Shown: positions 8,297-63,132 of the stretch, one piece after another
How the letters are laid out: each line of letters starts with the position of its first letter
How positions within the stretch are numbered: position 1 is the first letter of the stretch
DNA from: Candidatus Berkelbacteria bacterium
GTDB lineage: Bacteria > Patescibacteriota > UBA1384 > XYA2-FULL-43-10 > CAINNR01
Length of the DNA stretch: 64,000 nt
Assembly (NCBI GenBank): GCA_026397205.1
Contig: JAPLVH010000006.1
Coordinates: 13,392-77,391, forward strand
Direction of reading: 5' to 3'
The notes under the pieces: model-generated
What the model saw: only the letters and a program-made list of their open reading frames with translations
What the model was told of the DNA's origin: nothing
Database searches by the model: none
Translations under genes and position numbers: made by a program

Positions 8297-9550
8297 TCAG
8301 CTTTCGATTATTCCGCCGCCCAAAACTTCGTCCCACTTCGCCCGACCAAAGCGGGCTTCGCGGGACGGGCTTCGCCCGTAAATCACCGCCGACTGGCCGG
8401 GTGTAATTGCTCGTTGTGGCTCGGCGAATATGACTTTGATGTTGTCGCTAGATCCTTCGACAAGCTCAGGATGACTTGTGATTTTACAAGTCACTTCCGA
8501 ATGCCGGTATCTGATTTTAACTGAAAGATTTGAATTCTGAATTATGAATTCTGAATTGTGAATAAAATTTAAACTATTGACAATCATTTCTTTTTTGAAC
8601 ACTTCATTGTTGCCGCCAACAATCAACTGATTTTTTTCTTGATTAAATCCAACAACATAAAGCGGTTTTTTATCTTTGATTTTTGATTTGTCATTTTGAT
8701 TTTTGATTTTTGATTTTTGATCTATTAACTTTCTCTGTCCAATCGTATAATTTAGCAAACCTTGATGCTGACCGACAACATTGCCTTCGATATCGACAAT
8801 TTCGCCCGGCAGAAAAAACTTTTCTGGCAAATACCGGCGCAAAAAGTTGCGGTAATCTTTGTCGGCAAAAAAACAGATTTCCTGACTCTCCGGCTTCTCT
8901 TTGACTGGCAAATTATATTTGATCGCCAATTTTCGGACATCGATTTTTTTCATCTCGCCTAGCGGAAATAAAATTTTCGCCAACTGATTTTGATTCAGCC
9001 GGTAAAGCATATATGACTGGTCTTTGGTTTCGTCAACGCCTTTCAACAAATGATATTCCTTTTTACTTTTTGATTTATCATTTTGATCTTTGATTTTTGA
9101 TCTTTGATTTATTCTGGCATAGTGTCCCGTCGCCAATTTTTCGCAACCGATTGCCAATGCTTTTTTCAGAAGCAAATCAAATTTTATTTTTTCGTTACAG
9201 ATAATGCAGGGATTTGGCGTCCGCAAATTTTGATATTCGGTCAAAAAATAATCTACGACAGCTTTTTTGAACTCGCTTTTGGCGTTTATAACATAAAATG
9301 GAATGTTTAATTTCGCCGCTACCGCCCGGGCATCTTCCAGCGCCTGATAATCGCAACAGTGGTTGTCGCGCCGACAAGTTTTGCCATCCGGGAATAAGGG
9401 ACTTGTCCCGCGAAGTCCGCCTTGGGCAGACGAAGTGGGATCGCTCCACAATTTCAAAAACAGCCCGACCAAGTCGTGCCCGTAATCCTTTAGGATTTTT
9501 GCCGCCACGGCGGAATCAACACCACCGGACAGGGCAATTGCTAATTTCAT
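8297..9550 (-). CDS. mnmA: tRNA-specific 2-thiouridylase MnmA, carrying two in-frame heptamer-repeat insertions
   Basis: 'MKLAIALSGGVDSAVAA' PP-loop, catalytic Cys motifs, 417 aa. Inserted peptides 'KSKIKDQNDKSKSKKEY' and 'DQKSKIKNQNDKSKIKDKK' are encoded by (TGATTTT)n tracts. Confidence 0.85.
   Translation of the reverse strand: MKLAIALSGGVDSAVAAKILKDYGHDLVGLFLKLWSDPTSSAQGGLRGTSPLFPDGKTCRRDNHCCDYQALEDARAVAAKLNIPFYVINAKSEFKKAVVDYFLTEYQNLRTPNPCIICNEKIKFDLLLKKALAIGCEKLATGHYARINQRSKIKDQNDKSKSKKEYHLLKGVDETKDQSYMLYRLNQNQLAKILFPLGEMKKIDVRKLAIKYNLPVKEKPESQEICFFADKDYRNFLRRYLPEKFFLPGEIVDIEGNVVGQHQGLLNYTIGQRKLIDQKSKIKNQNDKSKIKDKKPLYVVGFNQEKNQLIVGGNNEVFKKEMIVNSLNFIHNSEFIIQNSNLSVKIRYRHSEVTCKITSHPELVEGSSDNIKVIFAEPQRAITPGQSAVIYGRSPSREARFGRAKWDEVLGGGIIES
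8670..8725. repeat. (TGATTTT)n heptamer tract, in frame inside mnmA
   Basis: 'tatctttgatttttgatttgtcattttgatttttgatttttgatttttgatc'. Confidence 0.7.
9061..9112. repeat. (TGATTTT)n heptamer tract, in frame inside mnmA
   Basis: 'ttttactttttgatttatcattttgatctttgatttttgatctttgattt'. Confidence 0.7.
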
Positions 9551-10903: not shown

Positions 10904-12142
10904 TTTCATCGGTGACATATTTCTAAGTTTTTCGACGATTTTTGGCATTACTTCCAATACCTTACCAATTTCCGCCTTGGTTGTCGAGCGGCCGAGGGTG
11001 AAACGAATCGAGCCGTGACACTGCTCTGGGTGCAAACCCATCGAAATCAGGACATGAGACGGCTCAAGCGAGCCGGAGGTGCAAGCCGAACCGGTCGAGG
11101 CGGCAATATTTTCCATATCAAGATTCAATAAAATTGATTCGCCTTCGGCATTCAAAAAAGAGATGTTGACATTCGCCGGCGACCGAAACTCCCGGCTACC
11201 GTTCAAAAATGAATTTGGAATTTTCAAAAGTCCATCGATTAATCCGTTTCTTAAATTTTCAATTCCATTTTTATTATTTATTATTTTTGATTTATTATTT
11301 AAAATTTCCACCGCTTTCCCAAACCCAACAATTCCCGCAACATTCTCCGTCCCGGCTCGCTTTTTATACTCCTGTCCGCCACCAACAATTTGCTGTTTGA
11401 TTTCGACCCCGTCGCGAAGATATAAAAGTCCGACACCTTTGGGTCCGTAAATTTTGTGTGCCGACAGCGTCAAAAGATCAACATGCAAATAGTCAACATT
11501 CATTTCAAAATACTCCGCCGCCTGCACCGCATCAGTGTGAAAAAAAATCCTACCGATATTTTGATCTTTGATCTTTGATTTTTGATTTTGTTTTTCAATC
11601 ATTTTCCCGATTTCCCGAATTGGCTGAACCGTTCCGATTTCGTTGTTGACATACATAATTGAAACCAATACTGTGTTTTTTTTGATTGCCGCCTCGACGT
11701 CGGCAACTTCGATAATTCCGTCGCGATTCGGCTTAACATATGTCGCTTCAATTTTCCCCTCTTCCTCCAACTCCTTGACCGACTGCAGCACCGCATGATG
11801 TTCAAACACACTGGTGATAATATGTGGTTTTTGGTTTTCTTTTTCTATTTTTACTCTGTCATTTTGCATTTTGATTTTTGATATTTGATTTTCTATAATT
11901 CCTCTTATCGCCAAATTGTCGGATTCCGATCCACCCGAAGTGAAAATAATTTCCTCCGTTTTGCAATTCAAAAACTCGGCAATTTTTCGCCGCGCTTCAT
12001 CAACGGCAAAACGCGCTTCCTGGCCGAGACCGTGAATCGAGGACGGATTTCCAAACTTATCGCTAAAATATGGCAGCATCTTTTTCAGCACATTATCATC
12101 CACCAAAGTCGTAGCCGCGTGATCTAAATATATTTTTTTCAT
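10901..12142 (-). CDS. iscS: Cysteine desulfurase IscS/NifS, with two in-frame heptamer insertions. The likely start is M at 12142; the tool ORF extends to 12166 through repeat sequence.
   Basis: 'MKKIYLDHAATT', PLP-Lys motif 'SAHKIYGPKGVGLLY', C-terminal catalytic Cys 'SACTSGS'. Inserts 'QNQKSKIKDQNIG' and 'ISKIKMQNDRVKIEKENQ'. Confidence 0.85.
   Translation of the reverse strand: MKKIYLDHAATTLVDDNVLKKMLPYFSDKFGNPSSIHGLGQEARFAVDEARRKIAEFLNCKTEEIIFTSGGSESDNLAIRGIIENQISKIKMQNDRVKIEKENQKPHIITSVFEHHAVLQSVKELEEEGKIEATYVKPNRDGIIEVADVEAAIKKNTVLVSIMYVNNEIGTVQPIREIGKMIEKQNQKSKIKDQNIGRIFFHTDAVQAAEYFEMNVDYLHVDLLTLSAHKIYGPKGVGLLYLRDGVEIKQQIVGGGQEYKKRAGTENVAGIVGFGKAVEILNNKSKIINNKNGIENLRNGLIDGLLKIPNSFLNGSREFRSPANVNISFLNAEGESILLNLDMENIAASTGSACTSGSLEPSHVLISMGLHPEQCHGSIRFTLGRSTTKAEIGKVLEVMPKIVEKLRNMSPMK
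11558..11598. repeat. (TGATYTT)n heptamer tract, in frame inside iscS
   Basis: 'ttttgatctttgatctttgatttttgattttg'. Confidence 0.7.
11848..11895. repeat. Heptamer tract (GTCATTTTGCATTTTGATTTTTGATATTTGATTTTC), in frame inside iscS
   Basis: Same arm sequence as in the complete elements at 12.2, 23.2 and 26.0 kb. Confidence 0.7.
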
Positions 12143-17971: not shown

Positions 17972-18748
17972 TTAATTCTCAATTACATTCTGAGATCTTA
18001 ATTTTGAATTCTTAATTATCACCACAAATTCGCCTTTTATTTTATGATTTTTTAGGCCAGAAATGATGTCGGCAATTTTGCCGCTCCAATATTCTTCAAA
18101 CTTTTTTGTCATTTCGCGGGCGATGAATATCTCTGTGTCGGCGGCAAAAAAAACTGATATATCTTTCAGTGTCCGCTCGATTCTCTGTGCCGATTCGTAG
18201 ATAACGACCGGACATTTTAGTGCCGATAATTCTTTCAGTTTTGTCTGCCGACCTTTTTTCTTCGGCAAAAAACCGGCAAAGTAAAATTCTTTGTCAACAA
18301 TTCCCGAAACACTAACCGCCGCCGTCAACGCCGACGGTCCGGGAATTGGAATGATTTGGATTTCATTTCCATCATTTTGACTTTTGATTTTTGATTTTTG
18401 AATTAATTTCTGTCCCGGATCAGAAATTCCCGGCGTGCCATTATCGCTGACATAAGCCGCATTTTCACCATCACTTATCCGCCGAATCACCATTTCAATT
18501 TTCTCCTCCGACGAATGCCGGTGAAGTGAGATCAACTCTTTTTTGATTCCCATGTGATGTAAAAGTCCACCGGCAACTCGAGTATCTTCGCAAACAACAA
18601 AATCAACGGCTGATAAAATCTCAATCGCTCGTTTCGTTATATCGCCCAAATTCCCAATCGGCGTCGCCACAATGTAGAGTATCCCCTGTTTCATCTTGAC
18701 AAAAGTGTAGCATTTTTTTTCAAAATATGATAGTATCTGGAAAGACAA
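17972..18748 (-). CDS. rsmI: 16S rRNA (cytidine1402-2'-O)-methyltransferase RsmI, with an in-frame heptamer insertion
   Basis: 'ILYIVATPIGNLGDIT...EDTR' tetrapyrrole-methylase-fold RsmI signature. Insert 'KSKIKSQNDGNE'. Confidence 0.8.
   Translation of the reverse strand: MSFQILSYFEKKCYTFVKMKQGILYIVATPIGNLGDITKRAIEILSAVDFVVCEDTRVAGGLLHHMGIKKELISLHRHSSEEKIEMVIRRISDGENAAYVSDNGTPGISDPGQKLIQKSKIKSQNDGNEIQIIPIPGPSALTAAVSVSGIVDKEFYFAGFLPKKKGRQTKLKELSALKCPVVIYESAQRIERTLKDISVFFAADTEIFIAREMTKKFEEYWSGKIADIISGLKNHKIKGEFVVIIKNSKLRSQNVIEN
18369..18404. repeat. (TGATTTT)n heptamer tract, in frame inside rsmI
   Basis: 'ccatcattttgacttttgatttttgatttttgaat'. Confidence 0.7.
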
Positions 18749-20695: not shown

Positions 20696-21554
20696 TTACA
20701 ACATTATATAATTTTAGCCAGTCCTCAATTGTCAATTCTTGCGCTCTGATTTTTTCCGACAACCCCGCACTTTTAATTATATCAGATGCTTCGGTTTTAG
20801 AGATATGAAGTCCGGCGGCCAAATTATTTTCCAAGGTCTTTCTTCGGCTAGCAAAACCAAATTTGACAATTCGAAATAGATCCGCTTCCTTAACTTTACG
20901 CTTTTCGCTTTTAGTTTTGAGTTTGATAATCGCCGACTCAACTTTTGGCAGCGGGAAAAACGAAGTTGATTTTACAATGTCGACAATTTCCACATCGGCA
21001 TAAAACTGAACTGAAACCGACAAAAGCGACATCTCGCCAGGACGAGCAACAATTCGTTCGGCAACTTCTTTCTGCACCAACAAAACCATCAACTCCGGTT
21101 TGTTGTCCGCTTCCAAAAATTTTCTAATGATGGCAGAAGTAATATTGTAGGGAATATTTGCGACGACTTTGTAGTCATAAGCCGTAAGCTGTAAGCTGTA
21201 AGCCGATAAATCCAGATCCAGCGCGTCTTCATTTACTATTTTAATTTTTACTTTGTCATTTTTCTTGCGATAGCTGACCCTGCGGGGATTTTTGATATTT
21301 GATATTTGATTTAGAAGTTCGGCGAGAAAGTCGTCTTTTTCAATTGCCACGACCCGGCCGGCTCGGCTGACAAGTTCCTCGGTCAAAACTCCCAGCCCCG
21401 GCCCGATTTCGATGACGGTGTCGGTTGATTTTAAATCCGCTGCTTCGACGATTTTCGCCAACACCTCATCGTCAACCAAAAAATTCTGCCCCATATTCTT
21501 TTTCGCCCAAATTTTATTCGCCTGCAAGAATTGAATCAGTTCTTCTTTGTTCAT
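20676..21554 (-). CDS. rsmA: 16S rRNA (adenine1518/1519-N6)-dimethyltransferase RsmA/KsgA, with heptamer insertions
   Basis: 'MGQNFLVDDEVLAKIV...VIEIGPGLGVLTEEL' KsgA signature. Inserts 'SAYSLQLTAY' and 'KNPRRVSYRKKNDKVKIKI'. Confidence 0.85.
   Translation of the reverse strand: MNKEELIQFLQANKIWAKKNMGQNFLVDDEVLAKIVEAADLKSTDTVIEIGPGLGVLTEELVSRAGRVVAIEKDDFLAELLNQISNIKNPRRVSYRKKNDKVKIKIVNEDALDLDLSAYSLQLTAYDYKVVANIPYNITSAIIRKFLEADNKPELMVLLVQKEVAERIVARPGEMSLLSVSVQFYADVEIVDIVKSTSFFPLPKVESAIIKLKTKSEKRKVKEADLFRIVKFGFASRRKTLENNLAAGLHISKTEASDIIKSAGLSEKIRAQELTIEDWLKLYNVVNSKIKN
21181..21203. repeat. (TGTAAGC)n heptamer tract, in frame inside ksgA
   Basis: 'gccgtaagctgtaagctgtaagc'. Confidence 0.65.
21245..21318. 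repeat. Mini-element fragment (GATAGCTGACCCTGCGGGGA module + (TGATATT)n arm), in frame inside ksgA
   Basis: 'gtcatttttcttgcgatagctgaccctgcggggatttttgatatttgatatttgatttag'. Confidence 0.7.
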
Positions 21555-23107: not shown

Positions 23108-23110
23108 AGG

Positions 23111-23236
23111 ATTATTATATCAAATATCAAATATCAAAGATCAAAATGTTGGTCGGCACTCCGTGCTGAGATTTTTATATTCTTTTTACCTTTTTCATCT
23201 ATCATTTTGATTTTTGATATTTTATTTTTGATTTTT
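23111..23236. repeat. Complete heptamer-array mini-element (intergenic): (ATCAAAT/ATCAAAG)n arm, core TTGGTCGGCACTCCGTGCTGAGATTT, unique segment, inverted (TGATTTT)n arm
   Basis: 'tatcaaatatcaaatatcaaagatcaaaatgttggtcggcactccgtgctgagattttta...catctatcattttgatttttgatattttatttttgatttttcc'. Fills the whole gap between two minus-strand genes. Confidence 0.7.
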
Positions 23237-23238
23237 CC

Positions 23239-25284
23239 TCAGATTTCCTCCTTCACTTCCTCCGGAATTTCCTCGAGGAAGCGCGACGGCAGATTCATTG
23301 TGAGCTTGCCAAAATAGGTTCGTTCGCCGGCATAAAGCAAATACAGCGTTTTTTGCGCCCGAGTCATTCCGACATAACACAGCCGGCGCTCCTCTTCGAC
23401 TTGATCCGGCTCAAATTCACTTCTGGAGTGCGGCAGAATCCCCTCCTCGAGACCGATAACGAAAACAATCGGAAATTCCAAACCCTTGGCCGAGTGGAGC
23501 GTCATTAATGTGACAACATTTTCATTTGATTTTATCTCGTCGGAGTCCTGATAGAGTGCGACCTTTTCTAAAAAATCATCGAGCGGACTTTCGCTGTCAG
23601 CCGTTTCGTTGTAAGTCGCAACCGTTTTTAATTCGAGAATATTTTCCCAACGACCCTCGCCCTCGGCCGTGCCGTCGAGAATAAAGTCCTTATAGCCGGA
23701 ACTCTCAGTGATGATGTCAATCATATCGGCAACCGACAAATTATCTTTACGCTCGCGAATTCCGTTGATCCAGGATAAGAATTTGGCGATTTTTTCTGGC
23801 AGCTCAACCGATAAATTTTCGGCGGCAAAATATTTTTCCAAGGTCTTAGCGCCTATTCCTCGCGGAGGGAGGTTTATCGCCCGCTCAAAGGAAACTCGAT
23901 CGTTCGGATTGGCGACCAAACGGAGATAGGCCAAAATGTCTTTGACTTCGCGCCGTTGGTAGAAGCGAATGCCGCCGACGACCCGATAGGGAATTTCGTA
24001 ACGCAAAAACGCTTCTTCGACCGCCCGGGATTGGGCGTTGGTGCGATACAAAACGGCAAATTGAGAAAAGCTTGTAGTTTGTAGTTTGTAGTTTGTAGAT
24101 AAATCCAAAAATCTAGCCACGGAGTGGCTACCATCATTTTGATTTTTGATTTTTGATTTTTGATTTTGCGCAAGAGATGTAATCTCTTGCGCAACAAACT
24201 CCGCTTCATCTTTTTCATTTAACGCTTCGTAAATCTGGATTTTCTGACCATCGGGATTATCGGTCCACAAAGTTTTCTCGGTTTTGTGCCGATTATATTT
24301 AATTAAAGCATCGGCGCCGACCAAAATATTTTTTGTCGAGCGATAATTTTGCTCAAGTTTTATCACCTTCGTTTGGGGAAAATCGCGCTCAAAATTTAAG
24401 ATATTTCGAAAGTTGGCGCCGCGAAAACCGTATATTGACTGCGAATCATCGCCGACGACACATAAATTTTTATGAATTTTCGACAGCTGGCGAATCCAGA
24501 GATACTGAACCTGGTTCGTATCCTGATATTCGTCAACCAAAATGTATTTGAAAATCCGCTGATATTTTTCCAGAGCCGTTGGGTTATCATCGAAAAGTTT
24601 GACGCAGTTCAAAAGCAAGTCATCGAAATCCATCGCCCCGATTGATTTTAGATATTTTTGATATTCCGCGTAGACATCGCGAACAATTTCATCAAAGTGT
24701 GAGTTGGCGTATTTGGAATACTCTTTTGGACCGAGAAATTCATTTTTCGCGCCAGAAATGTGAGAAAGAATGGCGTTTGGATTGTAATTTTTCGGATTGA
24801 TATTTTGATCGCGCATGATTTTCTTCACCACCGAAAGCTGGTCCTGCGAATCATAAATTGTAAAATTCGACGGGTAGCCGATATGCTGGGCCTCGCGTCG
24901 CAAAATCTTGACGCAAATTGAGTGGAAAGTGCCAAGCCATGGTAGTTTGTAGTTTGTAGAATTTTCTTCGTCATTCCAGTGAAGATGGGAATCTACTGAT
25001 AGTCCAGCCACGGAGTGGCTACCATCATTTTGATTTTTGATTTTTGATTTTTGATTTAGCAGAATTTCCATTCGCGCTTTCATCTCTCCCGCCGCTTTGT
25101 TGGTAAAAGTGACACAAAGGATATTGAAAGGTGAAACTTTTTTTTCTGATATCAAAAAAGCCAGTCGGTGCGTCAACGCCCGGGTTTTGCCGCTGCCGGC
25201 ACCAGCCAGGATTAACACCGGCCCTTCGGTTGTCCGAACCGCTTCCTGTTGTGGCGGGTTTAGTCCTTCGAAAATGTTTTTCAT
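23239..25284 (-). CDS. pcrA: UvrD/PcrA/Rep-family ATP-dependent DNA helicase, with two composite repeat insertions
   Basis: Walker A 'AGAGSGKTRALTHR', motifs Ia-VI ('TFHSICVKILR', 'VDEYQDTN', 'NYRS', 'TLHSAKGLEF'). Inserts '...NQKSKIKNQNDGSHSVAGLS...STNYKLP...' occur twice. Confidence 0.85.
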   Translation of the reverse strand: MKNIFEGLNPPQQEAVRTTEGPVLILAGAGSGKTRALTHRLAFLISEKKVSPFNILCVTFTNKAAGEMKARMEILLNQKSKIKNQNDGSHSVAGLSVDSHLHWNDEENSTNYKLPWLGTFHSICVKILRREAQHIGYPSNFTIYDSQDQLSVVKKIMRDQNINPKNYNPNAILSHISGAKNEFLGPKEYSKYANSHFDEIVRDVYAEYQKYLKSIGAMDFDDLLLNCVKLFDDNPTALEKYQRIFKYILVDEYQDTNQVQYLWIRQLSKIHKNLCVVGDDSQSIYGFRGANFRNILNFERDFPQTKVIKLEQNYRSTKNILVGADALIKYNRHKTEKTLWTDNPDGQKIQIYEALNEKDEAEFVAQEITSLAQNQKSKIKNQNDGSHSVARFLDLSTNYKLQTTSFSQFAVLYRTNAQSRAVEEAFLRYEIPYRVVGGIRFYQRREVKDILAYLRLVANPNDRVSFERAINLPPRGIGAKTLEKYFAAENLSVELPEKIAKFLSWINGIRERKDNLSVADMIDIITESSGYKDFILDGTAEGEGRWENILELKTVATYNETADSESPLDDFLEKVALYQDSDEIKSNENVVTLMTLHSAKGLEFPIVFVIGLEEGILPHSRSEFEPDQVEEERRLCYVGMTRAQKTLYLLYAGERTYFGKLTMNLPSRFLEEIPEEVKEEI
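24071..24169. repeat. Composite mini-element inside the helicase gene: (GTTTGTA)4, inverted core AGCCACGGAGTGGCT, (TGATTTT)5
   Basis: 'gcttgtagtttgtagtttgtagtttgtagataaatccaaaaatctagccacggagtggctaccatcattttgatttttgatttttgatttttgatttt'. The core is the reverse complement of the intergenic core motif CACTCCGTG. Confidence 0.75.
24941..25058. repeat. Second composite mini-element inside the helicase gene: (GTTTGTA)n, spacer, core, (TGATTTT)5
   Basis: 'ggtagtttgtagtttgtag...agtccagccacggagtggctaccatcattttgatttttgatttttgatttttgattt'. Confidence 0.75.
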
Positions 25285-25323
25285 AAGTTGCTTAAGTTTC
25301 TTAAGTGACGTAAGTCACTTATT
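25285..25323. repeat. Operon-junction palindromes immediately upstream of the helicase start codon
   Basis: 'taagttgcttaagtttcttaagtgacgtaagtcacttat' includes AAGTGACgtaaGTCACTT. Confidence 0.55.
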
Positions 25324-25659
25324 CATAATAGCCGAAAAAAATCCACTCGGCAATCAAAAAAGGCGCAGGATTTACTTGCTTATAGGGAACAAAAATTTTA
25401 ATTATTGCCCTGCAGTATCACTACGCCTTTGAGGGGTGTCGCGAAAACGACTTAGAATCGCTTCGTGGCATCCCTCAATTGATATTTTATCTATCAAGAG
25501 ACACCTTTCACGTTTCTTTTTTCCCCGTGTTCTTTGTCCTTACCAAATTTTTTTGATTTTCTGATTTACTTTTTCTTTTTGTTTTATTTGGTTTGGTTTT
25601 GGCAAGGAGATCAGAAAAAAAATTTCTAATGTCAAATTTCTAATTTCTAAAAAATATTT

Positions 25660-25838
25660 GACATTTGTAATTAGGAATTAGGCATTTATTTCTAACTTCC
25701 TTGCCAACGGTAAAATCAACGAAAAAACTCCTCGGAAGAGGAGCACATTAAAAATTTCAAATGACTAATTTCTAATGCCAAACAAAATCCATTTGACATT
25801 TGTAATTTGGAATTAGGCATTTATTTTATTCGCCCCTC
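25660..25838. repeat. Two direct copies (about 36 nt each) of ATTTGACATTTGTAATTNGGAATTAGGCATTTATTT, with (ATTTCTA)n tracts
   Basis: Copies at about 25663-25700 and 25800-25838. Related copies at 3206-3240 and 54930-54965. Confidence 0.5.
25720..25745 (-). terminator. Possible minus-strand rho-independent terminator in the long intergenic region
   Basis: Minus-strand reading 'ctcctcttccgaggag' + TTTTTTC. No annotated minus-strand gene upstream of it in the gap, so possibly a small RNA. Confidence 0.35.
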
Positions 25839-25968
25839 CAGACGAATGAGTGCTATTAAATTGTTAATGTTATATTTATTATAACGCACAATTCCCCAAT
25901 TTGTCAAGACATAAAGCGACTATTTTCGATCAGACAAAAAATTAGTCAGTGTGGAAATAGATAATTTA

Positions 25969-26073
25969 TATCAAAAATCAAAATGTTGGTCGGCACTCCG
26001 TACCGGGATTTTATTTCTTTAGATATATTTTATTTGTCATTTTGATTTTTGATATTTGCTTTTTGATTTTCTT
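25969..26073. repeat. Complete heptamer-array mini-element (intergenic). The right arm runs into the promoter of the downstream gene.
   Basis: 'tcaaaaatcaaaatgttggtcggcactccgtaccgggattttatttctttagatatattttatttgtcattttgatttttgatatttgctttttgattttc'. Confidence 0.7.
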
Positions 26074-27576: not shown

Positions 27577-27615
27577 CAATTAACCTAATTGACCTAATTA
27601 TTCTAATTAACCTAA
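27577..27615. repeat. Tandem 9-mer array (TAATTRNYC)x4 upstream of the four-helix-bundle gene
   Basis: 'caattaacc taattgacc taattattc taattaacc taa'. Confidence 0.55.
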
Positions 27616-58095: not shown

Positions 58096-59706
58096 TGTCT
58101 TTTTTTTCGAAAAATCGGTCAGGTGGCCAAGCAATTTCCCGCCGGCACGCCAGAGAAATTTTAAATCATCAGCACTTCGGATGCCACCGATTTTTCGAAA
58201 AATGAATTTCGGTGTCATAAATGACTTATAAAGTCCTTGTGTCAACTCTTTTATGTCCGACTCCGACAACTCCGATTTCATTATGATTTTCCGCTGGTCG
58301 TAATCGTCCCAATTTTTCGTTGTCAGCCAGCCGTTTTTTTGGCACTCTTTAAATAGTGGCGTGCCGGGATAAGGAATAACGATTGTCGCCTGCAAAGTAT
58401 CAACAAAACCCGAGTCAAATAATTTCTTCGACAAAGCGATCGTTCGTTTCGCGTCTTCCAAACTCTCCCACGGATAGCCCATCATTGTCGTAATGTGCGG
58501 CTCGAGTCCAGCCTTTTTCGCCATCCGAACCCCTTTTTCAATTTCGGCGACGCGCAAATTTTTATTAATATGATCGAGAGTTTTCTGATTTGCCGACTCT
58601 AGCCCATACAAAATAAAGCGAAAACCGGCTTTGCCCATTAAATTATATTCTTCTTGCGACAGGGCTTTCAACCGCATATTGCAATCAATTTTGATCTTTT
58701 TGTTGTAGCCGCGAGAAATCATCCCGTCGCAAAATTCTTCAAGCCACGGCCCAATCGGAAACGAGCCGGCGTCGTCCATAACTTCTTTAACTTTATATTT
58801 GTGGATCAGAATTCCGATTTCGTCCAACATTCGCTTGGCCGAATGTTTGCGGTAATCCTTGCCGGGGTAAAGCGTCGTCCAGGAGCAAAATGTGCACTTT
58901 CCCCACCAACAGTCGCGAGCGGAAAAAGTGTAAGTTCCCGGCGTTCGTTTGTAGTTGCCGTTTTTATAGGCGTATAGTTTCCACTTGGTTAAATCCCGAT
59001 CAATCATCGGCAGCTCGTCCAAAATATGATTTAATTCGAAATGTCCGGTATTTTCGAACAGATCCCCTTCCTTCATTTTTCTTGCGATAGCTGACCCTGT
59101 GGGGATCTTTGATTTTTGATCTTTGATTTTTCTAAACCAGATTCCTGCCTCCAATTTTTCTCCGTGATTGATATGGTTCGCAATATTCAGTGCCAAAAAA
59201 TCCCAATCGCCACCGGTGGCGATAAAATCAACCTTTGAATTTTTCATTGACTCCTCCGGCATCGCCGTCACATGATCGCCAACCAAAACGACTTTTACCG
59301 CCGGCATTTCCTTTTTTATCACATCGATGACTTTCCAGTGGCGCTTGACAACCGGTGTTTTGGTTTCAAAGATGATGAGATCGGGACGAAATTTTTTGAT
59401 GCGATCGAGCCAAATTTCCGGCAACAATTCTTCGGCAATGCCATCATCCCACAAGACATCAAATCCTTGCAACTGTAAAAGCGTCGCGACGTAAGCCGGC
59501 ACCATCGGATAAATGTAGGTCGGATTCTTAAACCATTGAAACTGGCGATTCTGCCCAAGACACGGCGTTCCCTTTTTACTCGGCATCGGCGGATAGGAAA
59601 TTGCGATTTTGAATTTTTTATTTTTCTCCAAATGTTCTTTTGTCGGTTTTGAAATGTGTTTAATCGCCATAAGATTTTCATAAAAATAAATATTGAGTTT
59701 CATCAC
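58093..59706 (-). CDS. B12-binding-domain radical SAM protein (class B rSAM), with an in-frame mini-element insertion
   Basis: N-terminal cobalamin-binding-like domain. Cys cluster 'CWWGKCTFC' (CX4CX2C spacing). Insert 'KIKDQKSKIPTGSAIARKMKEG'. Confidence 0.55.
   Translation of the reverse strand: MMKLNIYFYENLMAIKHISKPTKEHLEKNKKFKIAISYPPMPSKKGTPCLGQNRQFQWFKNPTYIYPMVPAYVATLLQLQGFDVLWDDGIAEELLPEIWLDRIKKFRPDLIIFETKTPVVKRHWKVIDVIKKEMPAVKVVLVGDHVTAMPEESMKNSKVDFIATGGDWDFLALNIANHINHGEKLEAGIWFRKIKDQKSKIPTGSAIARKMKEGDLFENTGHFELNHILDELPMIDRDLTKWKLYAYKNGNYKRTPGTYTFSARDCWWGKCTFCSWTTLYPGKDYRKHSAKRMLDEIGILIHKYKVKEVMDDAGSFPIGPWLEEFCDGMISRGYNKKIKIDCNMRLKALSQEEYNLMGKAGFRFILYGLESANQKTLDHINKNLRVAEIEKGVRMAKKAGLEPHITTMMGYPWESLEDAKRTIALSKKLFDSGFVDTLQATIVIPYPGTPLFKECQKNGWLTTKNWDDYDQRKIIMKSELSESDIKELTQGLYKSFMTPKFIFRKIGGIRSADDLKFLWRAGGKLLGHLTDFSKKKT
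59083..59131. repeat. Mini-element fragment (GATAGCTGACCCTGTGGGGA + (TGATYTT)n), in frame inside the rSAM gene
   Basis: 'cttgcgatagctgaccctgtggggatctttgatttttgatctttgattttt'. Confidence 0.7.
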
Positions 59707-60246: not shown

Positions 60247-61224
60247 TTATCGTTCCAATTTCCGAACCGTCAGTCCTTGGACAAAACGAATTCCATACCA
60301 AATGTGAGTTAGAAAGATCATTGGAATTGTTAGAATACCAATAAGCGGATTTTTGTGACGGAGGGAAATGATGACGGCATCAAATAAAAGTCCTAATCCG
60401 TAAGCAATAAGCGGTAAGAAAAACAAAATTCGAAATTCGAAATTCGAAATTCGAAACAATATCGAAAATAAGAAAATTAAATACAAAACAAATAAAGTCG
60501 GGATAAAGTAGCCGATTTTCAAAGATGTCTGCGGATATTTTTTGGCAAAAAAGCCGCGGTGGAGTGCATAGTTTCCGATTTGTTTGAAATGCTTTAAGAG
60601 ATTGGCGCGACGATGGTGGTAGACAATACCGGCCGGGTCATAAATAATTTTGTAGCCGGCACTTACAATGTCGAGACAAAGTTTTGTGTCCTCGCCCGGC
60701 CAATACTGGCAATCAAATCCGCCGACTTCCTTAAAAACATCGCGCCAGATCAGCAAACTGACCGTCGGCCAGTCGTCGCAAGTTCGACGATTTCCGATTG
60801 GTAGATAACGGTTGCGGGTGAAACCGCCACCGAGATACGACTCGAAAATCGCGCCGGAAACTTTTTGCAAAACGCCGTTTGATGACGGCGTCACTGCTGG
60901 ACAACCGACGGCGCCAACTTCAGATTTGCGAAAATTGGGAATCATCTTTTTTAGCCAGTCGCGGCGCGGATAGGCATCATCATCTAAAAAAGCCAGGACT
61001 TTCCCACGGGCAAATTTCAGCGCCAAATCACGCTTTTCTGCCGGTCCGATCTTGCCAGAAGCGATGATTTTTGTTTTTGGCCAGCGGTGAATTTCATCCG
61101 GTCGGTCGGGAAATATTAAAACCTCAAACTCCGGCCAATCGAGTTTCAGAATATGCTCCATTGATTCGTAAATGTAGTCGTTGATCTTTTTAACCGGAAT
61201 GATAATTGAAACTTTGGGTTTCAT
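60247..61224 (-). CDS. GT2 family glycosyltransferase with a C-terminal TM region
   Basis: 'KVSIIIPVKKINDYI...LAFLDDDAYP' DXD motif. Three C-terminal hydrophobic helices. Confidence 0.65.
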   Translation of the reverse strand: MKPKVSIIIPVKKINDYIYESMEHILKLDWPEFEVLIFPDRPDEIHRWPKTKIIASGKIGPAEKRDLALKFARGKVLAFLDDDAYPRRDWLKKMIPNFRKSEVGAVGCPAVTPSSNGVLQKVSGAIFESYLGGGFTRNRYLPIGNRRTCDDWPTVSLLIWRDVFKEVGGFDCQYWPGEDTKLCLDIVSAGYKIIYDPAGIVYHHRRANLLKHFKQIGNYALHRGFFAKKYPQTSLKIGYFIPTLFVLYLIFLFSILFRISNFEFRILFFLPLIAYGLGLLFDAVIISLRHKNPLIGILTIPMIFLTHIWYGIRFVQGLTVRKLER

Positions 61225-61338
61225 AAATCAAAAATTAAATATCAAAGATCAAAATGTTGGTCGGCACTCCGTGCCGGGATTTATTCTTTTTCATCTTTTT
61301 TATTTATCATTTTAATTTTTGATATTTGATTTTTGCTT
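61225..61338. repeat. Complete heptamer-array mini-element filling the intergenic gap: (ATCAAAA)n arm, core TTGGTCGGCACTCCGTGCCGGGATTT, inverted (TGATTTT)n arm
   Basis: 'aaatcaaaaattaaatatcaaagatcaaaatgttggtcggcactccgtgccgggatttattctttttcatcttttttatttatcattttaatttttgatatttgatttttgc'. Confidence 0.7.
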
Positions 61339-63132
61339 TTAGTATCCCATCTCTCGCAAATATTTTATCGTTTTTGTCAGTCCGGCTTCGAGCGAAATTT
61401 TCGGCGACCAGCCGAGAAGTTTTTTTGCTCGGCTGATATCCGGCTTTCGGCGAGTCGGATCGGAAATCGCCGGCGCAACATGAATAATTTTTGACGACGA
61501 CTTCGTCAACTTGATAACTTTTTCCGCCAACTCTAGCATCGTGCACTCCTGCGGATTGCCAATATTGATCGGACCCTCCAGATCCGAGTGGATGAATTTC
61601 ATCTGGGCCTCGATTTGGTCATCAACAAAGCAAAAACTTCTGGTTTGATTTCCACTGCCCTGAATCGTGATTTCTTCGCCAGACAGCGCTTGCTTGATAA
61701 AGTTGGTGACAACCCGACCATCATCCGGATCCATCATTGGGCCGTAGGTGTTGAAAATTCGGACAATGCCACTGTTGAGACTTTTTTGCCGGCGGGCTTG
61801 GTAAATCAGGGCTTCGGCAAATCGTTTGCCTTCATCATAACATGATCGCATTGAATATGACCAAACATTGCCGGAATAACTCTCCTTTTGCGGATGCTCA
61901 AGTGGGTCGCCGTAAATTTCCGAGGTTGACGATTGAAAAAACCGGGCGCTGTTTTTGTGGGCAAACTTTAAAAGATTTTCGACACCGATAGAATTTGTCT
62001 CCAAAGTTTTAATCGGATCGAGATAATACTTCGGTGGCGACGCCGGGCAGGCGTAGTTCAAAACAAAATCAAACTGACCGCGGGATTTTATCGGCTGACA
62101 AATATCGTGTTTGACGAATGTGAATCTGGGAAACCTCTTTAATTGATCGAGATTGCGCCGATTTCCGGTTTGCAAATTATCAATGACGACAACTTCGCCA
62201 CCGGCAGTCAAAATTCTTTTTGCCATATTGGCGCCTAAAAATCCGGCGCCGCCGGCAATTAAATATTTTTTGCCAGCCGGTTTGAGTTTTTTTGTCGTTG
62301 TTTTTTTCGGCGATGACGGCAAATCCAAGGACAATTTCTGGTGGCGATAATAGTTCAAAATCCGAGCGCGGTAAAAAATCGCCAGTGTGTCGGTAATCAT
62401 TTTTATGATCGTTTTCGGACTGATACCGGAAGCGATAGCGTTAAAATCCAGCTCAACCGGTGCCTCAAAAATCCGCCGATAACCAAGCTGATGGGCGATA
62501 ACCAGCATTTCCAAATCGAAAGCGTACTGTTTAACTAATGCTCGCGGCAAAATATCGTTGGCAACATTACGACGCAAAAATTTCAGGCCAGCTTGAGTGT
62601 CGGTGACATTCAGGCCGAAAAGAATTTTGATCAGCCGCGAATAAATCCAGGAGTAAATTTTTCGCCGCGTCGGATAGTTGACCCGGCTGGCCGGATGCCG
62701 TTTTGAGCCAATGACAAAATCGGCATCAAAGATTTCCAGAAGGCGGACGAATTTGTCGAACTGCTTAGGATCAAAATCACCACCGGCATCAGTGAAAGTA
62801 ATAATTTCGCCGGAAGCTTTTTCGGCGCCGAATTTCAGGGCATAACCTTTGCCGTGATTCGGGAAATATTCAAAAACCTTGACATTTTTTGATTTCGCTC
62901 GCCTCGCCTCTTTCGCCGTTTTGTCCGGTGAGCCATCAACGACGACGATAACTTCAAAATCATATGATAATTGATCGTGAGTTCTGACGATTTTCTGAAT
63001 CGTCCGATAGATATTTTTTTCCTCGTTGTAGGCCGGAATGACGATCGAAAGTTTTGGGCGCTGATTTTTCGTCAACTTCAAAACCCTCCCCCGTTTTGCC
63101 CCTCCGGAAGATTTTTGATTTGATTCTGGCAT
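61339..63132 (-). CDS. Bifunctional fusion: N-terminal GT2 polyprenyl-phosphate glycosyltransferase (ArnC/DPM1-like) + C-terminal UDP-glucuronate decarboxylase/UXS-like SDR
   Basis: GT2 'LSIVIPAYNEEKNI...VIVVVDGSPDKT...FTDAGGDFDP'. SDR 'YLIAGGAGFLGANMAKRIL', 'YDEGKRFAEAL'. Confidence 0.7.
   Translation of the reverse strand: MPESNQKSSGGAKRGRVLKLTKNQRPKLSIVIPAYNEEKNIYRTIQKIVRTHDQLSYDFEVIVVVDGSPDKTAKEARRAKSKNVKVFEYFPNHGKGYALKFGAEKASGEIITFTDAGGDFDPKQFDKFVRLLEIFDADFVIGSKRHPASRVNYPTRRKIYSWIYSRLIKILFGLNVTDTQAGLKFLRRNVANDILPRALVKQYAFDLEMLVIAHQLGYRRIFEAPVELDFNAIASGISPKTIIKMITDTLAIFYRARILNYYRHQKLSLDLPSSPKKTTTKKLKPAGKKYLIAGGAGFLGANMAKRILTAGGEVVVIDNLQTGNRRNLDQLKRFPRFTFVKHDICQPIKSRGQFDFVLNYACPASPPKYYLDPIKTLETNSIGVENLLKFAHKNSARFFQSSTSEIYGDPLEHPQKESYSGNVWSYSMRSCYDEGKRFAEALIYQARRQKSLNSGIVRIFNTYGPMMDPDDGRVVTNFIKQALSGEEITIQGSGNQTRSFCFVDDQIEAQMKFIHSDLEGPINIGNPQECTMLELAEKVIKLTKSSSKIIHVAPAISDPTRRKPDISRAKKLLGWSPKISLEAGLTKTIKYLREMGY

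What the first reader, a model, noticed from the sequence alone, without database searches (positions are those of the whole stretch)
24071..25058. UvrD/PcrA helicase carries two about 100-nt composite element insertions in the same relative arrangement
Within one gene, two insertions each consist of (GTTTGTA)n, a spacer, the inverted core AGCCACGGAGTGGCT and (TGATTTT)5. They add about 35 residues each to the helicase: '...STNYKLQ...NQKSKIKNQNDGSHSVA...'. Both are in frame, and the repeated nucleotide tracts are about 60 nt of near-identity 900 nt apart. That is a substrate for intragenic recombination or deletion that would remove a 2B-domain segment. The tolerance of a helicase to two such inserts suggests they fall in surface loops.
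Basis: seen in the sequence. Interest (0 to 1): 0.55.

Follow-up and report, generated by a model that had tools for sequence, protein, structure and literature searches.

The report
Repeat elements translated inside a helicase
An intact UvrD/PcrA repair helicase of a Candidatus Berkelbacteria genome carries two in-frame copies of a genome-wide repeat (7-base tandem arrays plus a small hairpin) in two surface loops, and those same two loops hold similar repeats in most related bacteria.

Summary
The helicase gene (23239-25284, minus strand, 681 aa) holds two inserts, A (24070-24165) and B (24940-25053). Each reads (AAAATCA)4, TGATGGT, hairpin AGCCAC-TCC-GTGGCT, spacer, (CTACAAA)n. They share a perfect 52-nt block 891 nt apart, in the same codon phase. 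All helicase motifs are intact, and both inserts are low-confidence loops in the AlphaFold model.

The domain assignment is wrong. B lies between motifs Ia and Ib (domain 1A). A lies just before motif IV (domain 2A). Recombination between them would remove motifs Ib to IV and leave 2B in place.

The inserts belong to a dispersed family:
- The window has 41 seven-base arrays, 26 of them inside about ten housekeeping genes, and three intergenic copies with the same hairpin.
- Of 118 Patescibacteria orthologues, 94 carry extra residues at site B; 47 of 108 do at site A.
- The hairpin recurs at site A in at least four distant lineages with compensatory stem changes.
- Perfect 9-13-bp palindromes in host codons often precede the inserts.

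Best reading: tolerated, translated REP/RPE-like repeats in permissive loops. This is a new variant of a known kind. How they spread, and why the hairpin is conserved, remain open.

The parts
23239..25284 (-). UvrD/PcrA-type SF1A helicase gene, 681 aa, intact
   Evidence: ORF. Pfam PF00580 and PF13361 cover the full length. PcrA 1pjr E 9.9e-181. All motifs present. An identical protein is annotated in an NCBI Candidatus Berkelbacteria MAG.
24070..24165 (-). Insert A (site A), 96 nt, aa 374-405 NQKSKIKNQNDGSHSVARFLDLSTNYKLQTTS. It lies in domain 2A, between the helix EFVAQEITSLAQ and the motif IV strand FAVLYRTNAQSR.
   Evidence: Not aligned to PcrA (query 373 = PcrA 345, query 406 = PcrA 351). 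pLDDT below 50 at 382-403. Site empty in L002-L005.
24940..25053 (-). Insert B (site B), 114 nt, aa 78-115 QKSKIKNQNDGSHSVAGLSVDSHLHWNDEENSTNYKLP. It lies between motif Ia (TFTNKAA) and motif Ib (GTFHS).
   Evidence: Not aligned to PcrA (query 77 = PcrA 81, query 116 = PcrA 88). pLDDT below 50 at 80-110. Site empty in L004.
24115..24166 (-). 52-nt block in A, identical to the block in B: AAATCAAAAATCAAAAATCAAAAATCAAAATGATGGTAGCCACTCCGTGGCT (left heptad array, TGATGGT, hairpin)
25006..25057 (-). The same 52-nt block in B
24115..24129 (-). Hairpin core AGCCAC-TCC-GTGGCT of insert A
   Evidence: Folded in the minimum-free-energy structure. Covarying 6-bp stem across 10 copies.
25006..25020 (-). 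Hairpin core AGCCAC-TCC-GTGGCT of insert B
24072..24098 (-). Right heptad array (CTACAAA) x3.9 of insert A
   Evidence: TRF
24942..24959 (-). Right heptad array (CTACAAA) x2.6 of insert B. Its last unit runs into the host codons K-L-P-W (AAA CTA CCA TGG).
   Evidence: The same junction is seen in L089 and L090, and peptides xYKLPWL or YNLQPIRLPWL occur in more than 12 orthologues.
24969..24995 (+). Second, degenerate hairpin nested in the spacer of B: CGTC ATTCCAGT GAAG ATGGGAAT CTA (peptide DSHLHWNDE). Its form is that of a CGTC-tagged REP.
   Evidence: 7 of 8 stem positions pair if G-T is allowed, and it is the only copy in the window. Definition taken from PMC3733652.
24166..24194 (-). Perfect palindrome TTGCGCAAGAGAT-TAC-ATCTCTTGCGCAA (13-bp arms) in the host codons VAQEITSLAQ, directly against the left array of insert A
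23117..23236 (+). Intergenic family member between the uvrD stop and the start of the G5-domain gene: (ATCAAAN)4, ATGTTGGT, CGGCAC-TCC-GTGCTG, spacer, (TTTTGAT)n. It folds into one long hairpin.
   Evidence: Fold: -34.1 kcal/mol, z -7.2 on the + strand. The orthologous spacer is empty in L002 and L004.
25970..26070 (+). Intergenic family member with core CGGCAC-TCC-GTACCG
61221..61340 (+). Intergenic family member with core CGGCAC-TCC-GTGCCG
8666..8721 (-). In-frame (AAAAATC) x8 array in the MnmA gene (peptide DQKSKIKNQNDKSKIKDKK). It is one of three arrays in that gene; the others are at 9082-9108 and 8531-8563.
   Evidence: The Pfam domains cover more residues than their profiles have positions: 229 against 201, 79 against 65, 96 against 76.
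11560..11590 (-). In-frame (AAAGATC) array in the cysteine desulfurase gene. The junction ATCAAAATATCGGTAGGATTTTTT looks like the module without its hairpin. Further arrays are at 11869-11892 and 11270-11301.
21287..21310 (-). In-frame (AAATATC) array in the RsmA gene (peptide NQISNIKNPRRVSYRKKNDKVKI), absent from orthologues
   Evidence: alignment A2
18375..18401 (-). In-frame (AAAAATC) array in a TP_methylase gene (peptide IQKSKIKSQNDGN)
59104..59131 (-). In-frame (AAAGATC) array in a radical SAM gene. The following CCCCRCAGGGTCAGCTATCGCAAGAAAAATGA is shared with the RsmA insert.

Best explanation
The two inserts are translated, intragenic copies of a lineage-specific dispersed repeat family. 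A unit consists of short tandem arrays of 7-nt repeats next to a 6-bp G+C hairpin (GGT, stem, TCC, stem).

In intergenic DNA the family forms imperfect palindromes of 100-120 nt: two inverted AAAATCA/TGATTTT arrays around the hairpin. Inside genes only versions that are stop-free, in frame and A-rich on the sense strand can persist, because TGATTTT and TTTGTAG arrays carry stop codons in every frame.

The two copies in the helicase sit in surface loops: the loop between motifs Ia and Ib, and the loop before the motif IV strand. There they add disordered hydrophilic peptides and leave the enzyme intact. These same two loops are hypervariable insertion sites in the orthologous helicase across Patescibacteria.

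Shown:
- the anatomy of the inserts;
- the intact helicase;
- the placement in loops;
- the family census in the window;
- the occupancy of both sites in orthologues;
- the pairing and covariation of the hairpin.

Inferred:
- Arrays grow by 7-nt duplication of local sequence.
- Copies are moved or homogenised between loci by recombination, gene conversion or an unidentified enzyme. The 52-nt identity between A and B shows that some recent copying took place.
- Selection on the protein filters which insertions survive.
- The peptides themselves have no required function.
For: - Anatomy and the 52-nt identity.
- Helicase intact: Pfam over the full length; the PcrA alignment breaks only at the two inserts; motifs invariant in 26 orthologues; Foldseek 1pjr TM 0.73.
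- Loops: pLDDT below 50 at 80-110 and 382-403.
- Family in the window: 41 period-7 arrays in 64 kb, 26 of them in genes, although 9% of the sequence (intergenic) holds 37% of arrays. Affected genes include MnmA, cysteine desulfurase, RsmA, a TP_methylase, glycosyltransferases and a radical SAM enzyme, each with extra residues relative to its Pfam profile or its orthologues.
- Strand filter: all 11 genic arrays of the AAAATCA type are on the sense strand. Six of seven array-end junctions are in the same frame..QND/QNI...
- Intergenic copies with the same core fold into long hairpins, z -4.2 to -7.2.
- Filled against empty sites: site B, site A and the uvrD-G5 spacer are empty in some orthologues.
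- Hot spots: the TFTNKA..GTFH span has a minimum of 21 aa (the PcrA value), a median of 39.5 and a maximum of 83, and 94 of 118 orthologues are at 30 or more. The site A span runs from 21 to 64, with 47 of 108 at 30 or more. Sister taxa differ in occupancy.
- Period 7 is the commonest tandem-repeat period in 12 of the 14 related loci examined, at 4-15 arrays per 10 kb in those twelve, with units that differ between genomes.
- Local growth: the right array of B ends in the host codons K-L-P, and empty sites at A hold one heptad-like unit (AAAATCG, AAAAGTC, GAAATCA).
- Precedent: in-frame REP and RPE insertions, including in uvrD/rep and other repair genes (PMC3733652; PMC3184786).
Against: - No transposase, RAYT or other candidate mobilising gene is present in the 64 kb, and no target-site duplication was recognised. 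Mobility in the strict sense is therefore not shown.
- A purely neutral reading does not explain three things: the hairpin is conserved, with compensatory stem changes, at the same helicase site in lineages only about 53% identical in protein; perfect 9-13-bp palindromes occupy host codons next to occupied sites but not next to empty ones; and the hairpin's flanks (TGGTCGG ... GATTT) resemble the empty-site sequence TGGTCGGATTTT.
- Translation of the inserts is inferred from open frames only.
- Only one contig of the genome could be examined. The exact family was not found in GTDB representative genomes or in JGI metagenomes.
Confidence: 0.6

Rival explanations
1. Selected nucleic-acid element. 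The unit at site A (host-codon palindrome, A-rich heptad tract, GGT, 6-bp hairpin with a TCC loop) is kept by selection for a function at the DNA or RNA level. Candidates are a recognition or cleavage site for a dedicated enzyme such as an HUH/tyrosine transposase-like protein, or an mRNA structure that affects stability, processing or ribosome pausing. On this view the peptide is a by-product, and the intergenic copies are the same functional element, or descend from the uvrD copy.
For: - Ten hairpin copies are 95% paired, 4 of 6 stem pairs show compensatory change, and the covariation score is 0.693 against 0.236 in shuffles, reached by 0 of 500.
- The same module sits at the same helicase site in the window, L007, L090 and the L091/L092/L094 group, while the heptad unit differs between genomes.
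- Perfect palindromes of 9-13 bp lie in the host codons just upstream in the window, L007, L089, L091, L092 and L094. The six empty sites have arms of 3-4 bp. Site B shows the same pattern.
- The flanks of the intergenic copies match the sequence of the empty uvrD site.
Against: - About half of the orthologues lack any insert at site A, and close relatives at 66-71% identity are empty.
- What occupies the two loops varies widely.
- No Rfam family matches.
- The hairpin set was partly chosen because the sequences form hairpins, which inflates the pairing figure.
- REP-type repeats also covary without any gene-specific function, because a transposase or nuclease recognises the stem (my knowledge; PMC3733652 describes complementary stem variants).
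Confidence: 0.2
2. Contingency (phase-variation) switch. Because 7 is not a multiple of 3, gain or loss of one heptad by slippage would shift the reading frame and switch the helicase off, giving a reversible mutator or recombination phenotype.
For: - The arrays in uvrD are perfect, with 4.3-4.4 and 2.6-3.9 units.
- Heptanucleotide simple-sequence repeats cause phase variation in Haemophilus (PMC12721329 and PMC8262952, titles and abstracts).
- A -1 shift at the end of the left array would meet a TGA at once (AAA TGA in CAAAATGATGG; read directly from the sequence).
Against: - The arrays are short.
- The same arrays sit in MnmA, cysteine desulfurase, RsmA and other housekeeping genes, which is not the profile of contingency loci.
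- Eight population variants of a related species from different samples (P0002-P0009) have insert lengths that are identical and sequences that are nearly so.
- All 118 orthologues compared are full-length open frames.
Confidence: 0.05
3. Classical MITE or REP moved by a transposase encoded elsewhere in the genome (a RAYT or IS200/IS605-like enzyme, or a DDE transposase). Each insert would be an independent transposition event.
For: - The intergenic copies have inverted terminal arrays, measure 100-120 nt and fold into long hairpins.
- Filled and empty sites exist among orthologues.
- The core in the genic copies reads GTAG-CCAC-TCC-GTGG-CTAG, which recalls GTAG-tagged REPs (PMC3733652).
- The spacer of insert B holds a hairpin of CGTC-REP form.
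Against: - The genic copies lack the inverted right arm and carry a different array, CTACAAA, in its place.
- No target-site duplication was seen.
- GTAG is not conserved (the intergenic copies read GTCG) and it overlaps the stem.
- There is no transposase in the window.
- The arrays merge into host codons, and the palindromes are built from host sequence. This points to local templated events rather than cut-and-paste.
Confidence: 0.12
4. Pseudogene or assembly artefact: the inserts mark a broken gene or a mis-assembled repeat.
For: Repeats can cause mis-assembly, and the sequence comes from a metagenome-assembled genome.
Against: - The frame is open over 681 codons with every helicase motif present.
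- Independent assemblies of many related organisms carry comparable in-frame inserts at the same two loops.
Confidence: 0.02

Closest known systems
Intragenic REPs (GTAG- and CGTC-tagged palindromic repeats; Di Nocera et al. 2013, PMC3733652)
   Same: - Small G+C hairpins dispersed in intergenic DNA, mostly downstream of genes, that also occur in frame inside genes.
- The paper reports them in replication and repair genes, including a UvrD/REP helicase, sometimes twice in one gene, encoding 20-30 or more residues.
- Stem variants are complementary.
- Some REPs are nested in larger palindromes.
- The spacer of insert B contains a hairpin of CGTC-REP form.
   Different: - The main hairpin here has a 6-bp stem, a TCC loop and a conserved 5' (T)GGT. 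The GTAG tag is not conserved.
- It is always coupled to heptanucleotide tandem arrays.
- The host is a CPR/Patescibacteria genome, a group absent from that survey.
- No RAYT was found in the window.
Rickettsia palindromic elements (RPE; Ogata et al. 2000, as cited in PMC3184786 and PMC3733652)
   Same: Palindromic repeats of about 100-150 nt, inserted in frame into many unrelated housekeeping genes. They are translated and tolerated because they sit in surface-exposed segments. They also occur in intergenic DNA (surface location from my knowledge of Ogata et al.).
   Different: - There is no sequence relation.
- The genic copies here are not palindromic as a whole, since only stop-free halves survive.
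- They are built from 7-nt tandem arrays.
- The same two loops of one protein are occupied in most members of a whole clade.
Heptanucleotide tandem repeats (long SSRs; cyanobacterial STRR, Beggiatoaceae TAACTGA repeats)
   Same: Period-7 tandem arrays of 2-8 units and many unit types, enriched in intergenic DNA. Heptamers are the commonest long SSR class in many prokaryotes. One proposed origin is polymerase slippage (PMC4679880; PMC4692102).
   Different: - Those arrays are reported as mainly intergenic and under-represented in coding sequence. Here 26 of 41 lie in frame inside genes.
- Here they are paired with hairpins and palindromes.
MITEs such as Nezha and the small dispersed repeats of Anabaena/Nostoc
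   Same: Non-autonomous repeats that fold into hairpins, with filled and empty orthologous sites and occasional fusion to reading frames (PMC3184786). I recall, from Elhai et al. 2008, nesting of very small hairpin repeats inside larger repeats; that paper was not read here.
   Different: No target-site duplication or cognate transposase was identified. The terminal 'inverted repeats' here are tandem heptad arrays.

Membership tests
UvrD/PcrA SF1A helicase | N-terminal UvrD-helicase and C-terminal UvrD_C domains above Pfam thresholds | tested here: met
   PF00580 309 bits (cut-off 23) and PF13361 246 bits (cut-off 25.6)
UvrD/PcrA SF1A helicase | Conserved motifs I, Ia, Ib, II, III, IV, V and VI all present | tested here: met
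   GAGSGKT 28, TFTNKAA 59, GTFHS 118, DEYQDTN 251, VGDDSQSIYGFRGA 277, QNYRS 312, YRTNAQSR 413, TLHSAKGLEF 595, VGMTRA 638. These are invariant in alignment A1.
UvrD/PcrA SF1A helicase | Four-domain fold similar to solved PcrA/UvrD structures | tested here: met
   The AF2 model matched against the PDB gives 1pjr E 1.6e-45, TM 0.68/0.73. Helicase activity itself was not tested.
GTAG-tagged REP (Di Nocera 2013) | Unpaired GTAG (or a close variant) at one end of the stem-loop, conserved across family members | tested here: not met
   The two genic copies read GGTAGCCAC, but there the AG is part of the stem. The three intergenic copies read GGTCGGCAC, and copies in other genomes read GGTGGG or GGTGAG. 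What is conserved is (T)GGT.
GTAG-tagged REP (Di Nocera 2013) | Stem of 6-13 bp with a short loop, in many dispersed copies, mostly extragenic | tested here: inconclusive
   6-bp stem and 3-nt loop. Five copies in 64 kb, three of them intergenic. The rest of the genome was not available.
GTAG-tagged REP (Di Nocera 2013) | Associated RAYT (Y1 transposase) gene | tested here: inconclusive
   No transposase domain in any of the 57 ORFs of the window. The whole genome could not be searched.
CGTC-tagged REP (nested hairpin in insert B) | CGTC tag, 8-9-bp stem starting with AT, 4-5-nt loop, short CCA-like tail | tested here: met
   CGTC ATTCCAGT GAAG ATGGGAAT CTA at 24969-24995 (+). Seven of 8 stem positions pair if G-T is allowed. 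The tail is CTA, not CCA.
CGTC-tagged REP (nested hairpin in insert B) | Multi-copy family in the same genome | tested here: not met
   It is the only copy in the 64-kb window. Related peptides (DSRLRGNDG, DPRVKPEDD, VIPAKAGIQ) appear at site B in other orthologues, but their DNA was not read.
MITE | Terminal inverted repeats and a long hairpin fold, size below about 400 bp | tested here: met
   True of the intergenic copies only: inverted heptad arrays, 100-120 nt, z -4.2 to -7.2. The genic copies lack the inverted arm.
MITE | Target-site duplication flanking the element | tested here: inconclusive
   None was recognised by inspecting filled and empty sites. The orthologues are too diverged (66% identity or less) for exact boundaries.
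MITE | Cognate full-length IS element with matching ends | not testable with these tools
   Only one contig of the genome is available. Pattern scans of public collections found no further copies.
Rickettsia palindromic element (RPE) | Sequence membership in an RPE family | not tested
   No RPE consensus was available. A different phylum and a different architecture make membership unlikely. The resemblance is in how the element behaves (in-frame, tolerated).
Heptanucleotide SSR / STRR-type arrays | Tandem head-to-tail copies of a 7-nt unit, many loci per genome | tested here: met
   41 of 98 TRF rows have period 7, and 12 more have period 14. The same holds in related genomes.
Phase-variable contingency locus | Repeat copy number polymorphic within populations, switching the reading frame | tested here: inconclusive
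   No length variation among P0002-P0009, but that is a related species. Reads for this genome were not available.

The most novel reading that the evidence does not exclude
The unit at helicase site A (host-codon palindrome, heptad tract, GGT-hairpin with a TCC loop) is an ancient or repeatedly re-created, structure-selected nucleic-acid element inside the uvrD coding sequence of Patescibacteria. The dispersed intergenic family of this genome was born from it: the flanks TGGTCGG...GATTT equal the empty uvrD site. This would point to an undescribed process in these reduced genomes that combines fold-back (palindrome-making) synthesis with 7-nt duplication. That process may be enzyme-driven and site-directed. 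It writes hairpins and arrays into housekeeping genes and then exports them as repeats.
Probability: 0.15. Interest if true: 0.8.

Novelty: new variant of a known kind. Interest (0 to 1): 0.55.

Why it matters
In-frame palindromic repeats inside essential genes are known from Rickettsia and from genomes rich in REPs. I found no description of them for the Candidate Phyla Radiation (full-text searches).

Here they are dense: about one gene in six in the window. They are built from 7-nt arrays, and they occupy the same two loops of a repair helicase in most of 118 orthologues. This matters in three ways:
- It partly explains why CPR proteins are littered with low-complexity insertions, which affects annotation, alignment and structure prediction for these organisms.
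- It provides a natural map of insertion-tolerant loops in SF1A helicases.
- The covarying hairpin, the palindromes built from host codons and the arrays that grow out of host codons give concrete handles on how such repeats arise. It becomes possible to test templated replication errors against an unknown mobilising enzyme. The origin of REP-like repeats is an open question.

Tried and rejected
- Rfam at gathering threshold on the whole window, and at E-value threshold on 23050-25100 and 25250-26000, gave only chance hairpin or miRNA-like hits. ARAGORN found no tRNA or tmRNA.
- Pattern scans for the exact family found nothing in GTDB representative genomes. JGI metagenomes gave four hits, all without heptad arrays, so chance. 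The pattern fixed this genome's own heptad and loop.
- The search for related loci on GTDB returned mostly non-CPR helicases. Only about eight of the loci were useful.
- Two attempts to extend the contig beyond the window failed, because the exact products are not on record.
- GTAG-REP membership was rejected because the tag is not conserved.
- A search of all 57 ORFs for a transposase or RAYT found none.
- Programmed -1 frameshifting (slippery heptamer plus downstream hairpin) was considered and dropped. AAAATCA arrays do not contain an X XXY YYZ site (read from the sequence), and orthologues encode full-length proteins.
- Intein, intron or other excised element was rejected on size (96 and 114 nt) and lack of any matching RNA family or protein motif.
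- Phase variation has no support from the eight population variants of a related species.
- A single 'house' heptad per genome was rejected, because each genome carries many different units.
- Palindromes directly upstream of arrays in other genes of the window were not found. That association is specific to the helicase sites.


Full report
**1. What is in the sequence**

The finding lies inside one ORF on the minus strand, 23239-25284, 681 aa. Read on the gene strand, two segments share one plan.

- Insert A (24070-24165) is (AAAATCA)4.4, TGATGGT, AGCCAC-TCC-GTGGCT, a 16-nt spacer and (CTACAAA)3.9.
- Insert B (24940-25053) has the same left array, junction and hairpin, then a 46-nt spacer and (CTACAAA)2.6.

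The two share a perfect 52-nt block (24115-24166 and 25006-25057). The blocks are 891 nt, or 297 codons, apart and in the same codon phase. An identical 18-nt right arm follows each. TRF gives 4.3-4.4 copies of the left unit, not 5. The tract is far beyond chance: 71 matches to ATCAAAAATCAAAA with up to 2 mismatches, against 6.95 expected.

**2. The host gene is an intact UvrD/PcrA helicase, and the inserts are loops**

Pfam UvrD-helicase and UvrD_C cover the whole protein. phmmer against the PDB aligns it to Geobacillus PcrA (1pjr, E 9.9e-181) in three blocks that break exactly at the inserts:

- query 5-77 = PcrA 9-81
- query 116-373 = PcrA 88-345
- query 406-678 = PcrA 351-646

All helicase motifs are present and invariant among 26 orthologues. 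An AlphaFold2 model built on that alignment has pLDDT below 50 at 80-110 and 382-403, which are the two inserts. Its best structural match is apo PcrA (Foldseek E 1.6e-45, TM 0.73). An identical protein is annotated in a Candidatus Berkelbacteria MAG.

**3. Where the inserts sit, and what a deletion would do**

Insert B lies between motif Ia (TFTNKAA, aa 59) and motif Ib (GTFHS, aa 118). This is the loop that leads into the strand carrying motif Ib, at the end of the first part of domain 1A. Query 115 corresponds to E. coli UvrD residue 85. The 1A/1B boundary near residue 90 is from my memory of Lee and Yang 2006 and was not checked here.

Insert A lies between the helix EFVAQEITSLAQ and the strand FAVLYRTNAQSR (motif IV), in domain 2A. 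The GIG motif, which PMC3797037 places in domain 2B, is at aa 476, downstream of both inserts.

Recombination between the two 52-nt repeats would give an in-frame 384-aa product lacking aa 76-372. That removes motifs Ib, II (DEYQD) and III and the QNYRS motif. The result is a dead enzyme, not a 2B deletion. The 2B idea does not.

**4. The inserts belong to a dispersed family**

The window has 41 tandem arrays of period 7, out of 98 TRF rows; another 12 have period 14. Twenty-six arrays lie inside about ten of 57 ORFs. The remaining 15 (37%) lie in the 9% of the sequence that is intergenic.

Genes carrying in-frame arrays include MnmA (three arrays), cysteine desulfurase (three or four), RsmA, a TP_methylase, two glycosyltransferases and a radical SAM enzyme. 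In MnmA each Pfam domain spans more residues than its profile has positions (229 against 201, 79 against 65, 96 against 76). In RsmA the insert is absent from three orthologues.

All eleven genic arrays of the AAAATCA type are on the sense strand. This is expected, because TGATTTT and TTTGTAG arrays contain a stop in every frame (read directly from the sequence). Six of seven array-end junctions use the same frame..QND/QNI... One alternative frame has a TGA. The other encodes a hydrophobic peptide (KMMVATPWLDFWIYL, visible in the overlapping ORF).

Three intergenic copies (23117-23236, 25970-26070, 61221-61340) carry the same junction and a variant hairpin, ATGTTGGT-CGGCAC-TCC-GTGCCG-GGATTT. 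There the right arm is the inverted array (TTTTGAT)n, so each copy folds into one long hairpin with z from -4.2 to -7.2. Two of the three fold better on the + strand because of G-U pairs.

Exact-pattern scans found no further copies in GTDB representative genomes or in JGI metagenomes. No Rfam family matches.

**5. The same two loops are insertion hot spots across Patescibacteria**

Among 118 orthologues, the span from TFTNKA to GTFH has a minimum of 21 aa (the PcrA value), a median of 39.5 and a maximum of 83, and 94 are at 30 or more. The site A span runs from 21 to 64, and 47 of 108 are at 30 or more.

On a neighbour-joining tree, sister taxa often differ in occupancy. Examples at site B are 7 against 23 residues, 8 against 33, and 9 against 36 against 67.

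DNA from sixteen orthologous loci shows heptad arrays of other units at these sites: AAATTCG, TTCGACA, GAATCAT, AAAGTAT, CTACAAC and more. When the unit is stop-free on both strands, as with AAATTCG, both inverted arms are translated. Period 7 is the commonest tandem-repeat period in 12 of the 14 related loci examined, at 4-15 arrays per 10 kb in those twelve.

The uvrD-G5 intergenic spacer is filled in the window, L001 and L003 and empty in L002 and L004.

Eight population variants of one related species have identical insert lengths, so there is no sign of rapid copy-number switching.

**6. Features that a purely 'junk in a loop' reading does not explain**

(a) *The hairpin recurs at site A.* The module 'heptad array, (T)GGT, 6-bp stem, TCC loop, stem' sits at site A in the window and in five other loci, while the array unit differs between genomes:

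- L007: AGCCAC-CCC-GTGGCT
- L090: AGCCTC-TCA-GAGGAT
- L091: GGGCAC-TCC-GTGCTC
- L092: GAGCGC-TCC-GCGCTC
- L094: GAGCAT-TCC-GGGCTC

Across ten copies, 95% of cells pair and four of six stem pairs show compensatory changes. The covariation score is 0.693 against 0.236 in shuffles, reached by 0 of 500. Slid registers pair at 22-33%. One caveat applies: some of these copies were found because they form hairpins.

(b) *Palindromes in host codons.* Perfect palindromes lie in host codons directly 5' of occupied sites. At site A the arms are 13 bp in the window (24166-24194) and L089, 12 in L091, 11 in L007 and L094, and 9 in L092. Six empty sites have arms of only 3-4 bp. Two occupied sites, L001 and L090, lack a palindrome. 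At site B, arms of 8-11 bp occur in L001, L002, L003, L005, L080, L090 and L091, against 3-7 bp in twelve empty loci. The window itself keeps only GAAT-GGAA-ATTC. The arms differ in sequence between lineages and lie in residues that align with empty orthologues, so they were made from host sequence. Random 48-mers from these genes reach arms of 8 or more in 0.8% of samples.

(c) *Arrays grow out of host codons.* The right array of B ends in the host codons K-L-P-W. The same junction occurs in L089 and L090 and, at the peptide level, in more than a dozen orthologues. Empty sites at A hold a single heptad-like unit: AAAATCG, AAAAGTC or GAAATCA.

(d) *Flanks match the empty site.* The flanks of the hairpin in the intergenic copies (TGGTCGG ... 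GATTT) equal the empty site-A sequence TGGTCGGATTTT of L002 and L003.

Points (b) and (c) suggest templated local events, namely fold-back or quasi-palindrome correction and 7-nt duplication. Points (a) and (d) suggest either selection on the hairpin or a target-specific insertion process. None of this is resolved.

**7. The extra piece in insert B**

The spacer of B contains CGTC-ATTCCAGT-GAAG-ATGGGAAT-CTA on the + strand (24969-24995), which encodes the peptide DSHLHWNDE. Its form matches the CGTC-tagged REP definition: a CGTC tag, an 8-bp stem beginning with AT, a 4-nt loop and a short tail. It has one mismatch and one wobble pair, and it is the only copy in the window. Peptides such as DSRLRGNDG and DPRVKPEDD at site B of other orthologues would be translations of better-preserved copies. 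That is an inference from the peptides, because their DNA was not read.

**8. Most likely explanation**

The inserts are tolerated, translated copies of a REP/RPE-like, heptad-based repeat family sitting in two permissive loops (confidence 0.6). The process acting on DNA is frequent and genome-wide, and selection on the protein decides where copies survive. That accounts for the recurrence at these two loops, the strand and frame bias, and the hydrophilic peptides. The 52-nt identity shows recent copying between A and B, by gene conversion or by insertion.

Rivals, with confidence:

- a structure-selected nucleic-acid element (0.2)
- transposase-driven MITE or REP insertion (0.12)
- a phase-variation switch (0.05)
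- a pseudogene or assembly artefact (0.02)

**9. Comparison with what is known**

In-frame REPs in repair genes, including a UvrD/REP helicase and sometimes twice per gene, are described in PMC3733652. RPEs in Rickettsia genes and other repeat-ORF fusions are described in PMC3184786. Heptanucleotide arrays are the commonest long SSR class and are mostly intergenic (PMC4679880 and PMC4692102).

Membership in the GTAG-REP superfamily fails on the tag. MITE membership is open, with no target duplication or transposase found. No transposase is present in the window. Full-text searches found no description of this in CPR bacteria.

The finding is therefore a new variant of a known kind. The open questions in section 6 are its most interesting part.

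Noticed in passing
window 25285-25910 (minus strand); L001:5203-6000; L002:5378-6000: The 0.6 kb upstream of uvrD looks non-coding but conserved. It starts with a perfect TTGACA-18-TATAAT promoter (25907-25878). Blocks follow that are conserved in two other Berkelbacteria (AACATTAACAAYTTAATAGCACTCATTCG..GGAGGGGCGA; GGGATGCCACGAAGCGATTC..CGCGACACCCCT.AAAGGCGTA), and there is a terminator-like hairpin at 25744-25727. The variable hairpins between the conserved blocks are heptad arrays in the window. There is no Rfam match. These may be unknown small RNAs or a leader.
   Followed up: partly
window 4088-4109, 10447-10468, 10882-10903, 13912-13933, 25284-25306, 58074-58095: Arrays of a 9-nt unit containing CTTAAG (CTTAAGTGA and variants, 2-3 copies) lie 0-25 nt upstream of the start codons of at least six genes. 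Two of them abut the ATG directly, including that of uvrD. They sit where a ribosome-binding site would be.
   Followed up: partly
window, whole (for example 2470-2491, 3420-3442, 7075-7108, 32368-32395, 59206-59223): Perfect inverted repeats with arms of 9 bp or more and loops of 8 nt or less are about four times as frequent as in shuffles (12 against a mean of 3.0, maximum 7). Most lie inside coding sequence and away from heptad arrays.
   Followed up: partly
window 20676-21554 (RsmA), 8297-9550 (MnmA), 10901-12166 (cysteine desulfurase): Other housekeeping genes carry one to four in-frame heptad-array inserts. The RsmA insert and the radical SAM insert (59030-59150) share a second core, CCCCRCAGGGTCAGCTATCGCAAGAAAAATGA. 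L001's RsmA has an unrelated 28-aa insert at another position.
   Followed up: partly
window 27578-27615 and 28022-28059, flanking ORF 27619-27987: A gene for a '23S rRNA-intervening sequence protein' (PF05635, four-helix bundle) is bracketed by two different 9-nt tandem arrays, AATTAACCT x4.2 and TTAGAATAA x4.2.
   Followed up: no
window 25597-25830: A second heptad family (AATTTCT, AAATTAC, AAATGTC) forms two hairpins here. Their arms pair through G-U only on the + strand. The same units occur in frame in ORFs 31098-33293 and 54912-56096, giving peptides such as NFKLQISN and AKLQMSNE.
   Followed up: no
window 11560-11600: In the cysteine desulfurase gene the array junction reads ATCAAAATATCGGTAGGATTTTTT. 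This looks like the helicase module (ATCAAAATGATGGTAG[CCACTCCGTGGCTA]GATTTTT) with the hairpin missing. Either the hairpin was deleted here, or the hairpin is a separate small insertion.
   Followed up: no
L002:1-256: A related Berkelbacteria contig carries a truncated transposase gene (weak Transposase_mut and DDE_Tnp_IS66 hits) about 6 kb from its uvrD. No such gene is present in the window.
   Followed up: no
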